Made by a program: the position numbers and the translations under genes. Source: a virus. From it: 64,000 nt of DNA. The notes beneath the pieces are model-generated. The model saw only the letters and a list, made by a program, of their open reading frames with translations, made no database searches and was not told the origin of the DNA. Shown in pieces: positions 429 to 41,123 of the stretch. The stretch is taken from IMG/VR virus record IMGVR_UViG_3300030060_007423, positions 32,001-96,000 of that record; one strand, given 5' to 3'. Positions within the stretch are counted from its first letter, which is position 1. Every line of letters begins with the position of its first letter.

Positions 429-444
429 TTTTTAGCGGCTTCTT
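418..444 (+). terminator. Intrinsic terminator-like hairpin
   Basis: GAGGCCGCTAA-TTT-TTAGCGGCTTC: 11-bp stem with one G:U, overlapping the stop codon at 426-428. Confidence 0.6.
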
Positions 445-454
445 GATATTTATA
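445..454 (+). promoter_or_regulatory. Class-2 motif GATATTTATA (candidate late promoter)
   Basis: Same core recurs in intergenic DNA at 12657, 15138, 20525, 35732, 40872, 63442 and 63906. Confidence 0.55.
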
Positions 455-490
455 ATTGAGTATAAATACCACTAATAGAGGAGAATTTAC

Positions 491-700
491 ATGATTGGTA
501 AAGCACTAGGACGATTCATAGCATTCATTGCAGGAGCAGGTCCATATAAAGAACTTAAAAATATTGTAAAAGACAATCCAGAATTCGCAAACGAATATCG
601 TTCAATAAGATCCGATTTAGATAGAGACATTGCAGAGGCAGAAGCTTTATTAAAAAAGATACAAAAGAAAACTGGTAAAAAAATAAAATCAATTAAGTAA
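491..700 (+). CDS. Small hypothetical protein in the tail module
   Basis: 69-aa ORF with GAGGAG SD; fills the gap before the tape measure gene. Confidence 0.75.
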   Translation: MIGKALGRFIAFIAGAGPYKELKNIVKDNPEFANEYRSIRSDLDRDIAEAEALLKKIQKKTGKKIKSIK

Positions 701-726
701 CAATTATTTCAACAATAGGTTAACCA

Positions 727-15568: not shown

Positions 15569-15599
15569 TTTTTTATTGTCAAATAAATTTGTTATATTA
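15563..15599 (+). promoter_or_regulatory. Class-1 promoter motif (28-bp direct repeat, copy B)
   Basis: Identical 28-mer followed by GTTATATTAG. Confidence 0.8.
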
Positions 15600-15628
15600 G
15601 TATTAACTAAAAAATAAAGGAGAAAAAC

Positions 15629-15802
15629 ATGGAACTTTTTGAAAAACTTCAAGACCTAGTAAATTCTACTCAAGCAGATATTGATAAATTCAATAGTGGA
15701 AACAAATCTGCAGGAACACGAGTTAGAAAAGCTATGCAAGAAGTTAAAAACATGGCACAAGATGTAAGAATTGAAGTGCAAAACATTAAAAATGATAAAT
15801 AA
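15629..15802 (+). CDS. Hc1-family (histone H1-like) small protein
   Basis: Own translation: MELFEKLQDLVNSTQADIDKFNSGNKSAGTRVRKAMQEVKNMAQDVRIEVQNIKNDK (57 aa). GNKSAGTRVRK is the Hc1 signature; AAGGAG SD. Below the ORF-track cut-off. Confidence 0.85.
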   Translation: MELFEKLQDLVNSTQADIDKFNSGNKSAGTRVRKAMQEVKNMAQDVRIEVQNIKNDK

Positions 15803-15821
15803 TAATTAAAAGGAGAAAAAG

Positions 15822-16608: not shown

Positions 16609-17736
16609 ATGGCAAAGAAAGTAAATACAAAGAGAGATGATTTAGCAAATTTGTTGGCAGATAGTCTTAACAAAAAGTTCAAGGACTATAAAGTTGCTTA
16701 CTTTCTTGACGGTACAGAAGAAACACCAACTGACTTAACAGAGTGGATTAGTACTGGGTCATCTATGCTTGACTTGGCAATTTCTAACAGAAAAAATGGT
16801 GGTATACCAGTTGGTAGAATTACTGAAATAACTGGTCTTGAAGGTAGTGGAAAGAGTCTTATGGCTGCTCACCTACTTGCAAATACACAAAAACAAGGTG
16901 GACTTGCAGTTTACATTGATACAGAAAATGCAATGAATGAAGAATTTGCTACGGCAATTGGAATTGATGTTGCAAATATGTTATATATTCAATTGGAAAC
17001 TGTTGAGGAAATTTTTGAGGTTATGGAAAACATCATCACTAAAGTTAGAGAAAGCGATAAAGATAGGCTTGTTACAATAGTTGTAGATTCATTGGCTGGC
17101 TCAACAACCAAAGTTGAGAGTGAGGCTGATTATAGCAAAGATGGCTGGGCAACCAGTAAGGCAATTATTTTATCAAAGGCTATGCGTAAGATTACTCAAA
17201 TGATAGGAAGGCAGAGAATTTGTCTCGTATTTACAAACCAACTTAGACAAAAGATGGGGGTTATGTTTGGTGATCCTTGGACTACATCTGGAGGTAAGGC
17301 AGTAGCTTTCCATTCCAGTTGTAGACTAAGGCTAAAACCTATGGGACAAATAAAAGCCAGAGTTGATGGTCAAGAACAAGTTATGGGTATTAAAACCGTT
17401 GCACAAGTTGTAAAAAATAGAATGGGCCCACCATTAAGAAAGTCACAATTTGAAATTTATTTTGAAAGTGGTATTGATGATTTTGGTGGATGGTTACATG
17501 TTCTAAAAGATTACAAACTTGTTAAGCAAGGTGGTAGTTGGTACACATATACTGACCAAAATGGTAAGGACCATAAATTTATGTCAAAGGATTGGAATTC
17601 ATTATTGGAAAACAATGAAGAACTAAGAACAGAAATTTATGATAAAATTGCAGATACAATTATTATGAATTACAAAGTTGATAATTTTGGAATTGATGAT
17701 GTTGAAATCAGCAGTGAACCAGTACCAGAAGGATAA
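16609..17736 (+). CDS. recA: RecA/UvsX recombinase
   Basis: ISTGS..LD, Walker A GLEGSGKS, YIDTE, IVVDSLA, FTNQLR, TTSGGKA, KNRMGPP. Confidence 0.95.
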   Translation: MAKKVNTKRDDLANLLADSLNKKFKDYKVAYFLDGTEETPTDLTEWISTGSSMLDLAISNRKNGGIPVGRITEITGLEGSGKSLMAAHLLANTQKQGGLAVYIDTENAMNEEFATAIGIDVANMLYIQLETVEEIFEVMENIITKVRESDKDRLVTIVVDSLAGSTTKVESEADYSKDGWATSKAIILSKAMRKITQMIGRQRICLVFTNQLRQKMGVMFGDPWTTSGGKAVAFHSSCRLRLKPMGQIKARVDGQEQVMGIKTVAQVVKNRMGPPLRKSQFEIYFESGIDDFGGWLHVLKDYKLVKQGGSWYTYTDQNGKDHKFMSKDWNSLLENNEELRTEIYDKIADTIIMNYKVDNFGIDDVEISSEPVPEG

Positions 17737-17748
17737 TAGGTTATGAAT

Positions 17749-18000
17749 AAGTAATTGGTGGCTAACCCCACCTTTTACTTCGTCTTACACAACAACAGCC
17801 TTCTCGTGGCGTAGGATGTTAAGGTCAAAAATCCGCACTTATCGAATGATTATTTGACCGACCAATGTTGTTAACGAGTGATTTGTCTTTGGCCAAGTGA
17901 CCCCAAAGCAAATTTATGATTAAGGTATATGTGGCTGATACCAATTGTTCTCTAATCGTCACTGTTGGAGATACTATAAACATATACTATGTCAGCTTGG
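17749..18000 (+). ncRNA. Candidate structured non-coding RNA with two pseudoknots and a kissing loop; family not recognised
   Basis: 368-bp ORF-free gap, GC-richer than other gaps, with at least seven predicted helices; G:U pairs favour the + strand (see findings). Confidence 0.7.
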
Positions 18001-18039
18001 AAGCCCTGGATTTGTTTTATCAATGAAGGGGCTTTTTTT
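18001..18039 (+). terminator. Intrinsic terminator
   Basis: AAGCCCT...GGGGCTT stem followed by a T run (18033-18039). Confidence 0.75.
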
Positions 18040-18042
18040 ACC

Positions 18043-18080
18043 AAAAATATTTTTTTATCCCAAATAAAATAGTTATATTA
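18043..18080 (+). promoter_or_regulatory. Class-1 promoter motif
   Basis: AAATATTTTTTTATCCCAAATAAAATAGTTATATTA upstream of the exonuclease. Confidence 0.75.
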
Positions 18081-18104
18081 TACTAAACAAAAAGATAATA
18101 GCAT

Positions 18105-19154
18105 ATGTCAAAAAGCAGATACTTTTCAATACTTGAAACACTACAGGAGAATACTGATACTCCTTCTAACCCCAATGATAGAATATTAATCGTTGACGGG
18201 CTAAATACATTTATCAGAGCATTTGCAGCAAACCCAGTAACAAATGAAGATGGAATACATGTTGGTGGAATAACTGGTACACTAATGTCAATTGGATACG
18301 CAATAAAACAAATTAAACCAACACGTGTTATTATTTGTTTTGATGGAAAAGGTGGTAGCCAAAGAAGAAGAAAAATATTTCCAGATTATAAAGCAAATCG
18401 TAGAGTAAAATCTAGGCTTACACGGCATGGAAATCATAATACAATGGAAGATGAATCATTGTCTATGAAACAACAATTAATGAGGTGTGCTCAATATTTA
18501 CAACAATTACCAGTTACTGTTTTAAGTGTTGAAAATATTGAAGCAGATGATAGTATGGCATATATTTCTCAACAGGTATATCCTGATAGTCAAAAGTTTA
18601 TTATGTCAACAGATAGGGATTTTTTACAATTAGTATCTGACAAAGTACATGTATGGTCACCAACAAAAAAGAAGTTTTATTTTAAGGAAACAATAATGGA
18701 AGAGTATGGTATACCATCTCATAACTTTTTATTATATAGAACAATTGAAGGTGATGCATCTGATAATATCCCAGGAATTAGAGGTGCAGGTAGAAAAACC
18801 ATTGCAAATAGAATTCCTATAATAACAGAGAACAGGACAGTAACTATTGATGAAATAATTGATTTTACAGCACAAAATTCAAAATATAAAATATTAAAAA
18901 CAATTTCTGAATCAAAAGAATTGTTAGATATGAATTATAAACTAATGCAATTAGATGAGGTAGATATATCAGGTTCAGCAAAGACAAAGATAATGAATAC
19001 AGTAAGGTCACCTATCCAACGATTAGTAAAATATGAATTTCAAAAAATGATTTTAGAAGACAAAATCAATGGTTCAATTAAAAACCCAGACTTATGGTTA
19101 AAGCAAGTATTTTTACCATTAGACTCTTATGCAGGAATGACAAATGACAAGTAG
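18105..19154 (+). CDS. 5'-3' exonuclease / flap endonuclease (PolI N-terminal, T4 RNase H-like)
   Basis: LIVDGLN, CFDGKGG..RR..FPDYKANR, EADD, STDRDFLQL, GDASDNIPGI.G.G.K. Confidence 0.95.
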   Translation: MSKSRYFSILETLQENTDTPSNPNDRILIVDGLNTFIRAFAANPVTNEDGIHVGGITGTLMSIGYAIKQIKPTRVIICFDGKGGSQRRRKIFPDYKANRRVKSRLTRHGNHNTMEDESLSMKQQLMRCAQYLQQLPVTVLSVENIEADDSMAYISQQVYPDSQKFIMSTDRDFLQLVSDKVHVWSPTKKKFYFKETIMEEYGIPSHNFLLYRTIEGDASDNIPGIRGAGRKTIANRIPIITENRTVTIDEIIDFTAQNSKYKILKTISESKELLDMNYKLMQLDEVDISGSAKTKIMNTVRSPIQRLVKYEFQKMILEDKINGSIKNPDLWLKQVFLPLDSYAGMTNDK

Positions 19155-33169: not shown

Positions 33170-33246
33170 GGTGGTGATAGCTCAATAGGTTAGAGCATTG
33201 GATTGTGGTTCCAAAGGTTGTGAGTTCGATTCTCATTTACCACCCA
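33170..33246 (+). tRNA. tRNA-His(GUG)
   Basis: G-1 at 33170; acceptor GTGGTGA/TTACCAC; D-arm GCTC/GAGC; anticodon arm TTGGA-TTGTGGT-TCCAA; T-arm GTGAG-TTCGATT-CTCAT; discriminator C. Confidence 0.95.
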
Positions 33247-40855: not shown

Positions 40856-40871
40856 TTTTTAATTTTATGAT

Positions 40872-40881
40872 TATATTTATA
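40872..40881 (+). promoter_or_regulatory. Class-2 motif TATATTTATA
   Basis: Upstream of the small RHH-like gene and the GT4 pair. Confidence 0.5.
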
Positions 40882-40913
40882 TATGTATATTCATATATAA
40901 AGGAGATAATAAG

Positions 40914-41105
40914 ATGACACAAGACAAACTTAAATTAACATCTGTTAAAATTTCTGAAGACTTACATAGAAATTTTAAGATTAAGGGAATACAAGACAAC
41001 CTTAATTTTCAAAAGATAACTAATAGGGCAATTCACCTATATTTAACAGATAAAACATTTAGACAGAAAATTTTAGAAACCACGTTATTAGGCAAAAATT
41101 TATAG
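40914..41105 (+). CDS. Small ribbon-helix-helix-like protein
   Basis: 63 aa; LTSVKI strand followed by two helices; AAGGAG SD. Confidence 0.55.
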   Translation: MTQDKLKLTSVKISEDLHRNFKIKGIQDNLNFQKITNRAIHLYLTDKTFRQKILETTLLGKNL

Positions 41106-41123
41106 ATTATTAAGGAAGAGGTT

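What the first reader, a model, noticed from the sequence alone, without database searches (positions are those of the whole stretch)
17749..18039. Unrecognised ~290-nt structured RNA with two pseudoknots and a kissing loop, downstream of recA
Seen: the only long ORF-free gap (368 bp) in a densely packed window is nearly tiled with complementary segments. H1: AAGTAA 17749-54 / TTACTT 17775-80 around GGTGG 17757-61 / CCACC 17768-72. PK-A: AACAACA 17791-97 / TGTTGTT 17866-72 crossed by CTCGT 17803-07 / ACGAG 17874-78, enclosing hairpin GGTCAAA-AATC 17823-33 / GATT-a-TTTGACC 17848-59. H4: ATTTG-t-CTTTGG 17881-92 / CCAAAG-CAAAT 17903-13. PK-B: GTATATGT 17925-32 / ACATATAC 17980-87 crossed by GGCTGATA 17933-40 / TGTCAGCT 17990-97, enclosing hairpin TCTCTAA 17949-55 / TTGGAGA 17965-71. 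The H4 loop (AGTGAC 17896-901) is perfectly complementary to that last loop (GTCACT 17958-63). Both pseudoknots share the topology A-B-[hairpin]-A'-B'. G:U pairs favour the + strand, and a terminator follows at 18001-39 before a new promoter, so it is the 3' end of the Hc1-SSB-RecA transcript, not a 5' riboswitch. I cannot match it to tmRNA, RNase P, 6S, SRP, introns or known small ribozymes. Inference: a new class of compact phage ncRNA (ribozyme, protein sponge or anti-defence decoy, or recombination-associated scaffold).
Basis: partly seen in the sequence, partly recalled or inferred. Interest (0 to 1): 0.9.

Follow-up and report, generated by a model that had tools for sequence, protein, structure and literature searches.

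The report
HDV-like ribozyme plus uncatalogued kissing-loop RNA
The gap after recA in this uncultured marine phage holds two separate RNA elements rather than one new 290-nt RNA: a hepatitis-delta-type self-cutting ribozyme (a known kind) and, next to it, a conserved folded RNA with a loop-loop "kiss" that matches no catalogued family and has no known function.

Summary

- **Module A (17782-17872)** has the nested double pseudoknot of an HDV-like self-cleaving ribozyme. This includes a 7-bp P1 with a G.U at +1, a 3-bp P3 with a 7-nt L3, a P4, and an invariant C followed by NAA in J4/2. All five helices covary. The predicted cut is at 17781|17782, one base after hairpin H1.
- **Module B (17875-17999)** is a rod of covarying helices with a highly conserved internal loop. 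This kiss covaries through about nine sequence versions.
- **Distribution of B.** It gives no Rfam match, occurs once per genome, and was found only between recA and the exonuclease gene of this phage clade.
- **Terminator.** One follows at 18000-18039.

This scan has often met HDV-like ribozymes on other DNA, but it has not met module B. B's function is unknown. No cleavage or transcript data could be obtained.

The parts
16609..17736 (+). recA gene (upstream gene of the transcript)
   Evidence: Pfam RecA PF00154, E 8.6e-59
17749..17780 (+). Hairpin H1, ending one base before the predicted ribozyme cut; would be the 3' end of the cut recA message
   Evidence: Present in the MFE fold. In every relative a stable hairpin of unrelated sequence, or module B's closing stem, ends 1-3 nt before the cut site.
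17781..17782 (+). Predicted self-cleavage site, between C17781 and G17782
   Evidence: This is the 5' edge of P1. The weak Rfam RF02682 matches start exactly here and at the same place in L068 and L037.
17782..17872 (+). Module A, HDV-like ribozyme. P1 17782-88/17811-17; J1/2 17789-90; P2 17791-97/17866-72; P3 17798-800/17808-10; L3 17801-07; J1/4 17818-22; P4 17823-33/17848-59; J4/2 17860-65 with invariant C17862.
   Evidence: Helix table. 93.6% of cells paired against at most 46% when partners are slid; 9 pairs with changes on both sides; 0 of 500 shuffles as high. My descriptor gives 1 hit in the 170.8-kb genome against 0.06 per shuffled genome.
17875..17999 (+). Module B, uncatalogued folded RNA. 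Weak closing stem P0 17875-78/17996-99; Ha 17881-17913; short helix S 17917-20/17991-94; stem A 17925-32/17980-87; conserved internal loop 17933-46 and 17975-79; Hc 17947-74.
   Evidence: Model R1 finds one copy per locus and one in the genome. Covariation. No Rfam match in any variant.
17896..17901 (+). Ha-loop side of the kissing interaction; partner is 17958-17963 in the Hc loop
   Evidence: RNAalifold chose this helix by itself. 97% paired with 2 pairs changed on both sides within subtype B1. Wholly different but complementary sequences in the other subtypes.
17958..17963 (+). Hc-loop side of the kissing interaction
   Evidence: As for 17896-17901
18000..18039 (+). Intrinsic terminator: GC-rich hairpin followed by a run of seven T
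   Evidence: MFE fold. A hairpin plus T-run follows module B in most relatives. The consensus scan missed it because its loop is longer than 8 nt.
18105..19154 (+). 5'-3' exonuclease (FEN) gene, the downstream neighbour
   Evidence: Pfam PF02739, E 2.5e-33

Best explanation
The recA-exonuclease gap is a slot for small RNA elements that are transcribed together with recA. In this phage it holds four parts in a row.

1. Hairpin H1.
2. An HDV-like self-cleaving ribozyme. It should cut between C17781 and G17782. The recA message would then end in H1 with a cyclic phosphate, and a downstream RNA of about 258 nt would start with a 5'-OH.
3. Module B. This is a separately evolving rod of helices (P0, S, A, Hc) bent at a highly conserved internal loop. 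Side hairpin Ha holds the bend by kissing the Hc loop.
4. An intrinsic terminator.

Shown here: the folds, their covariation, their independence from each other, and their genomic distribution.

Inferred, not shown: cleavage itself, and the ribozyme's role as a 'separator' between a message and whatever follows it. What follows is module B here, a tRNA-Ala in some relatives, and another ORF in others.

Module B's biochemical job is not known. My best guess (about 35%) is a stand-alone folded RNA whose conserved internal loop binds a protein or a small molecule. The ribozyme releases it from the recA message in this lineage; in lineages without the ribozyme it stays as a 3'-UTR domain.
For: Modularity:
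- The recA-exo gap ranges from 17 to 409 nt in 80 related loci.
- A occurs alone (L037, L041, L067), B alone (L002, L005, L011-L020), A then B (window, L001, L003), and B then A then a tRNA (L042/43).

Module A:
- It has the HDV order of helices. Twelve of 15 sequences have G.U at +1. L3 reads UUCNCGY, identical to CPEB3's in six relatives, and there is an invariant C-N-A-A.
- All five helices covary.
- My descriptor finds it once in the genome against 0.06 hits per shuffled genome.
- Three weak RF02682 matches start at the predicted +1.
- CPEB3 also has a one-G-C-plus-U.U P1.1 and a 4-nt J4/2 (PMC4836649).
- In L068 the ribozyme lies between a stop codon plus hairpin and the next gene's ribosome site, with no promoter or terminator between them.

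Module B:
- Stem A, Hc, S, P0 and the kiss all show changes on both sides.
- The kiss sequence differs completely between subtypes but stays complementary. One pair of subtypes shows a paired insertion of U and A.
- All 19 hits confirmed by the model in the metagenome scan that reach the neighbouring genes have recA and/or exo beside them. None of the 5 pattern matches in prokaryote genomes passed the model.
Against: - There is no experimental or transcript evidence.
- Module A scores 15.5-26.3 bits against Rfam's HDV model, which has a gathering score of 44.
- P1.1 and the catalytic C are invariant, so covariation cannot test them.
- H1's inner stem is followed by a short T-rich run and looks weakly terminator-like. 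If transcription stops there, few transcripts reach the ribozyme.
- Nothing tested here bears on B's function, and many close relatives lack B altogether.
- In the window, P0 and S are only 3-4 bp, so B's fold here may differ from the family consensus.
Confidence: 0.75

Rival explanations
1. The whole 17749-18039 stretch is one ~290-nt RNA of a single new class, with two pseudoknots of the same topology.
For: All parts are adjacent and on one strand in the window and in L001 and L003. After cleavage, the ribozyme, B and the terminator would indeed stay on one molecule.
Against: The two halves occur alone or in reversed order in relatives. The 5' half fits a known ribozyme family. One proposed stem is wrong and another is not conserved.
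Confidence: 0.05
2. Module B acts in cis on transcription. It would be a riboswitch-like or put/EAR-like element that decides whether RNA polymerase stops at the terminator right behind it or reads on into the exonuclease, helicase and ribonucleotide reductase genes.
For: B is nearly always followed within 0-5 nt by a terminator. It has a highly conserved internal loop clamped by a distal loop-loop contact, as many aptamers do (my recollection, not tested). In the window and in B1 relatives two 5' strands (S and the invariant loop) can pair with the same 3' strand, which could serve as a switch.
Against: I found no conserved anti-terminator pairing by eye. A promoter-like box sits between the terminator and exo in relatives, so exo does not depend on read-through. 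L042/43 have B with no terminator.
Confidence: 0.2
3. Module B is itself a new class of self-cleaving ribozyme.
For: It lies beside a known ribozyme, and new ribozyme classes have been found that way (my recollection of Weinberg et al. 2015). It has about 20 nearly invariant junction nucleotides and a tertiary clamp.
Against: There are no cleavage data. The window and L001 carry U where most members have G in the conserved UAGAAA stretch. It resembles no known catalytic core: the hammerhead-like CUGA-N stretch lacks the essential G8 (my reading of the sequence).
Confidence: 0.1
4. Module B is simply a nuclease-resistant 3' domain that stabilises the recA message.
For: B always lies at the 3' end of a transcript or of a processed RNA. 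In subtypes B2 and B3 it begins 1-3 nt after the recA stop codon.
Against: In the window, L001 and L003 the ribozyme would cut B away from recA, which then ends in H1. An ordinary terminator hairpin already does this job in relatives without B.
Confidence: 0.15
5. The gap encodes a small protein: ORFs 17916-18026 (+, 36 aa) or 17825-17983 (-, 52 aa).
For: Both ORFs exist.
Against: One-base indels fall inside the conserved core and between the window and L001. The start codons are not conserved, and substitutions are compensatory for base pairing.
Confidence: 0.01

Closest known systems
HDV-like (delta-family) self-cleaving ribozymes with P4, such as CPEB3 and the F. prausnitzii ribozyme (Rfam RF02682)
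   Same: Module A has the same nested double pseudoknot, a 7-bp P1 with G.U at +1, a 3-bp P3, and a 7-nt L3 of the UUCNCGY type (CPEB3 has UUCACGU). It also has a weak P1.1 of one C-G plus U.U as in CPEB3 (PMC4836649), and C-N-A-A in J4/2.
   Different: It scores below Rfam's gathering score. It has a long AT-rich P4 with a bulge. It sits in a marine phage after recA, always 1-3 nt behind a stable hairpin. Activity is untested.
Theta ribozymes: minimal HDV-like ribozymes of gut Caudoviricetes (Kienbeck et al. 2024, PMC10879173)
   Same: Both are phage-borne HDV-like ribozymes that appear to trim or separate RNAs within a longer transcript. The L3 and J4/2 motifs resemble drz-Mtgn-1.
   Different: Theta ribozymes lack P4, cut within 5 nt of a tRNA 3' end, and are more than 80% from gut phages. 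Here P4 is present, the upstream partner is an mRNA hairpin or module B, and a tRNA, where present, lies downstream of the ribozyme.
Junction RNAs clamped by a distal loop-loop contact, such as purine riboswitch aptamers and natural hammerheads (comparison by architecture, from memory)
   Same: In module B a distal loop-loop pairing holds two arms together around a highly conserved unpaired core.
   Different: There is no sequence or model match to any of them. The helix order differs, and no ligand, target gene or cleavage is known.
Unnamed candidate structured RNAs of IMG/VR phages (Fremin et al. 2023, PMC10690425)
   Same: That survey mined the same collection for covarying intergenic RNAs. 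Many of its candidates contain terminators or lie next to replication genes such as gp32.
   Different: I could not check whether module B is among its 10,006 unnamed candidates. The paper's text mentions no recA-linked motif or ribozyme.

Membership tests
HDV-like self-cleaving ribozymes | Nested double pseudoknot in the order P1-P2-P3-P3'-P1'-P4-P2' | tested here: met
   All 15 sequences parse this way. 93.6% paired and every helix covaries.
HDV-like self-cleaving ribozymes | 7-bp P1 starting at the cleavage site with a G, usually as a G.U wobble | tested here: met
   G17782.U17817. GU in 12 of 15 sequences, GC in 1; P1 positions 3 and 6 (and, by hand parse, 7) show compensatory changes.
HDV-like self-cleaving ribozymes | 3-bp P3 closed by a 7-nt L3 with the U...G pair and a C for P1.1 | tested here: met
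   P3 is GCC/GGC or ACC/GGU (covaries). L3 is UUCNCGY in all sequences. The U20.G25 role is taken from PMC4836649.
HDV-like self-cleaving ribozymes | P1.1 mini-helix between L3 and J1/4 | tested here: inconclusive
   C17803 can pair with G17818, with a U.U next to it, as described for CPEB3 (PMC4836649). Both sides are invariant, so there is no covariation.
HDV-like self-cleaving ribozymes | Catalytic cytosine in J4/2 | tested here: met
   C17862 is invariant in 15 sequences and followed by N-A-A. Two nucleotides separate it from the last Watson-Crick pair of P4, so its exact position in the junction is uncertain.
HDV-like self-cleaving ribozymes | Match to an Rfam HDV model at gathering score | tested here: not met
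   RF02682 scores 15.5, 26.3 and 25.1 bits against a gathering score of 44. The alignment shown for RF02682 has only nested pairs, so it cannot score the P2 pairing.
HDV-like self-cleaving ribozymes | Site-specific self-cleavage giving a 2',3'-cyclic phosphate and a 5'-OH | not testable with these tools
No bench data.
Theta ribozymes | Minimal form without P4 | tested here: not met
   A P4 of about 11 bp is present and covaries.
Theta ribozymes | Cleavage site within 5 nt of a tRNA 3' end | tested here: not met
   There is no tRNA upstream. tRNA-Ala lies 2-3 nt downstream of the ribozyme in L029, L042, L043 and L076.
Any Rfam 15 family (module B) | Covariance-model match | tested here: not met
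   No match up to E = 10 in the window or E = 5 in six diverse B variants.
   None of 7 pairs changes on both sides, and 3 pairs are broken in most sequences. The 3' strand covaries with helix S instead. In subtype B4 the strand is fully used by nested helices (read by eye).
Intrinsic terminator | GC-rich hairpin followed by a T-run | tested here: met
   18000-18035 forms a hairpin followed by seven T.

The most novel reading that the evidence does not exclude
Module B is a new class of functional RNA with a specific biochemical activity. It could be a ligand- or polymerase-binding regulator of the terminator behind it, a protein decoy, or a new self-cleaving ribozyme. So far it appears confined to one clade of uncultured marine phages.
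Probability: 0.35. Interest if true: 0.75.

Novelty: new variant of a known kind. Interest (0 to 1): 0.55.

Why it matters
Two points matter.

First, the ribozyme's setting. It adds a P4-bearing HDV-like ribozyme family from marine phages, where the theta-ribozyme survey found few. Here the ribozyme always sits just behind a stable hairpin, between a message and whatever follows it: a folded RNA, a tRNA or another gene. That points to a general 'transcript separator' role wider than trimming tRNA 3' ends.

Second, module B is a small RNA of about 125-150 nt with unusually clear covariation, including a loop-loop contact rewritten several times in evolution. That makes it a good candidate for structure determination and function tests. 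Its fixed place beside recombination and replication genes suggests where to look for a partner.

Tried and rejected
- **14-mer scan.** A 14-base scan of viral contigs returned 119 loci, and none matched model R1.
- **Chance coding hits.** The non-recA hits of the longer pattern (L200, L204, L206-8, L211, L218; genome loci L220-224) lie in coding sequence or fail the model.
- **Automatic loop extraction.** Extracting loops with RNAfold and scoring only contiguous duplexes was too noisy. Non-cognate loops reached 6 bp in 36% of pairs. I relied on aligned columns instead.
CTCGT/ACGAG is rejected, and the long PK-B stem is not conserved (see the observation check).
- **Hammerhead reading of B.** The CUGA-N ... 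GAAA stretch lacks G8, and the window has U in place of G12.
- **Other shapes for B.** A k-turn reading of the internal loop did not fit the consensus by eye. ARAGORN finds no tRNA or tmRNA there.
- **Small ORFs.** Rejected; see the rival explanations.
- **Extra descriptor hits.** Further hits of my HDV descriptor in L011, L015 and L215 are G.U-rich matches about 3.3 kb downstream of recA, in the gene block beyond exo, and I treat them as false.
- **Literature.** Searches found no paper on a recA-linked phage RNA. The 'recA' hits in one preprint were the words 'recall' and 'recapitulate'.

Full report
**Context**

The window is part of a 170.8-kb uncultured virus record. The genes around the finding are a gp32-like SSB, RecA (16609-17736), a 5'-3' exonuclease (18105-19154), a DnaB-type helicase and a ribonucleotide reductase. 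The RecA protein has about 430 close relatives in IMG/VR, mostly from marine samples, and 80 loci were fetched. No isolated phage in the annotated collection is close: the best match is 54% protein identity, and there is no DNA match.

**Observation**

The gap is the longest ORF-free stretch in the window, though not the only long one. The + strand folds moderately better than shuffled controls (z -1.9), and the - strand does not. At gathering scores Rfam finds only the tRNA-His at 33171.

**The region is modular**

Across the 80 loci the recA-exo distance is 17-34 nt, about 110-250 nt, about 300-410 nt or about 2 kb. Reading the gaps shows two conserved blocks that travel independently:

- Block A occurs alone in L037, L039-41, L044-45 and L067.
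- Block A is followed by tRNA-Ala in L029 and L076.
- Block B occurs alone in L002, L005, L026, L032-33, L047-48, and in the 174-193-nt gaps.
- A then B occurs in the window, L001 and L003.
- B then A then tRNA-Ala occurs in L042/43.
- Other relatives have only a terminator hairpin, or nothing at all.

One 290-nt RNA of a single class is therefore excluded.

**Module A is an HDV-like ribozyme**

Anchoring on the conserved loop, every sequence parses in the order P1, J1/2, P2, P3, a 7-nt L3, P3', P1', J1/4, P4, J4/2, P2'.

- In the window P1 is 17782-88 with 17811-17 and begins with G.U.
- P3 is 3 bp.
- L3 reads UUCUCGU. Six relatives have the exact CPEB3 loop.
- J4/2 holds an invariant C followed by N-A-A.

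On the MAFFT alignment the structure is 93.6% paired, against at most 46% when partners are slid. Nine pairs change on both sides (0 of 500 shuffles reach this), and each of the five helices has at least one compensatory change. This holds although MAFFT put two rows out of register.

The window and its 95%-identical relative L001 already differ by a compensated pair in P4 (17826/17856), and by U.G versus C-G in P1. A simple descriptor of these features hits the 170.8-kb genome once on both strands, here, against 0.06 hits per shuffled genome.

Rfam's F. prausnitzii HDV model gives sub-threshold matches that start exactly at the predicted +1 in the window, L068 and L037. The literature supports the detailed reading. 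CPEB3 has a P1.1 of one G-C plus a U.U, a G1.U wobble, a U.G pair closing L3 and a 4-nt J4/2 with the catalytic C (PMC4836649). Theta ribozymes are the P4-less, tRNA-3'-linked, mostly gut-phage subgroup (PMC10879173), and module A does not belong to that subgroup.

Those 3' bases fit better as the 5' strand of module B's closing stem, which is CGAG in the window and CAAG in L001, both pairing with CUUG.

**What the ribozyme does (inferred)**

A stable helix always ends 1-3 nt before the cut site. It is H1 in the window, unrelated hairpins in L003, L037, L041 and L068, and the 14-bp closing stem of module B in L042/43.

In L068 the ribozyme lies between the stop codon plus hairpin of a small DUF4494-like ORF and the ribosome site of the next ORF. 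No promoter or terminator lies between them. The common denominator is a separator: the upstream RNA gets a hairpin-protected end, and the downstream RNA (module B, a tRNA or an mRNA) starts with the ribozyme and a 5'-OH.

**Module B**

A core model (R1) finds exactly one copy per locus, one in the whole genome, and none in 119 chance-match loci. Pattern scans of the viral, metagenome and prokaryote-genome collections, filtered with R1, gave true hits only in marine contigs. Every such hit that reaches the neighbouring genes has recA and/or exo beside it.

Four subtypes (B1-B4) share the same plan:

- A closing stem P0.
- A helix S, and an optional small hairpin Hb. Hb is absent in the window.
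- Stem A.
- An asymmetric internal loop whose two sides are nearly invariant: about 14 nt around GCUGA-N-ACCAAU, opposite UAGAAA.
- A terminal hairpin Hc.

Counts:

| Element | Result |
|---|---|
| Stem A | 6 of 8 pairs change on both sides |
| Hc | 5 of 7 pairs change on both sides |
| Nested model on B2/B3 | 87.4% paired against at most 47% slid; 16 pairs changed on both sides |
| S in B1 | 4 pairs changed on both sides |
| S in B2/B3 | 3 pairs changed on both sides |
| P0 | covaries |

**The kiss is real**

RNAalifold, given only the B1 alignment, chose the Ha-loop/Hc-loop helix as its consensus. That helix is 97% paired, with two pairs changed on both sides. Across subtypes the paired hexamers are entirely different yet complementary:

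- AGUGAC/GUCACU
- GGUGAC/GUCACC
- A 7-bp version with G.U in L048
- UAUAGC/GCUAUA
- UAUAGU/ACUAUA
- A G.U variant in L260, and a variant with one mismatch in L236

B2 and B4 have five- and six-position versions interrupted by an A.G or A.A mismatch. They differ by a matched insertion of U on one side and A on the other.

Its 5' strand is part of the invariant loop. When its 3' strand changes (L002, L046, L048), the change is compensated in helix S or in P0, not in that stem. In B4 the 3' strand is fully used by the nested helices A, S and P0. As a family feature it is not supported.

**Function of module B**

Nothing tested here settles it. It is always the last folded element before a transcript end, whether a terminator or a ribozyme cut. 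It is dispensable in many relatives, and in the window lineage it would be cut away from recA. That argues against a simple recA-stabilising role. It favours either a stand-alone RNA or an element that acts on the transcribing polymerase. I give rough odds in the explanations.

No Rfam model matches any subtype. I could not check the unnamed IMG/VR candidates of PMC10690425.

**Earlier notes of this scan**

HDV-like ribozymes that trim phage or giant-virus RNAs have been noted many times on other DNA. A sequence look-up for module B returned only this same stretch.

**Verdict**

The single-new-class interpretation is not. One half is a new member of a known ribozyme family in an unusual setting. 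The other half is a well-supported orphan RNA fold.

Noticed in passing
L029:1918-1992, L042:3250-3324, L043:2751-2825, L076:1203-1277: In some relatives a tRNA-Ala (UGC) gene starts 2-3 nt after the ribozyme's last helix. The tRNA's 5' leader would then be the whole ribozyme, the reverse of the published theta-ribozyme layout.
   Followed up: partly
L068:5697-5818 and the L009/L010 gap: A small ORF is inserted after recA in some relatives. Its counterpart in L080 gives a DUF4494 match. In L068 it is followed by a hairpin, the ribozyme and then further small ORFs and an Hsp20 gene before exo.
   Followed up: partly
L068:6492-6926, L080:3805-4233: An Hsp20-family gene lies between recA and exo in relatives with a ~2-kb gap.
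   Followed up: no
window 18040-18104 and the corresponding stretch in most relatives: A conserved box (TTGTTAATAAC...TTATATT in relatives; a variant ending TTATATTATAC in the window) lies between the terminator and exo. It is probably a phage or Bacteroidota-type promoter, which the sigma-70 scan does not model.
   Followed up: no
window 17757-17772: The inner stem of H1 is followed by TTTTACTT, and the consensus scan scores it as terminator-like. It might stop some transcripts before the ribozyme.
   Followed up: no
L011:6075, L015:8483, L215:4431: My HDV descriptor also hit a conserved G.U-rich site about 3.3 kb downstream of recA, in the gene block beyond exo. I took it to be a false positive and did not examine it.
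   Followed up: no
window 429-726, 40856-41123, 15583-15821: Other ORF-free gaps of 240-300 nt exist in the window. They contain neither an HDV-descriptor hit nor a module B hit, and I did not study them further.
   Followed up: partly
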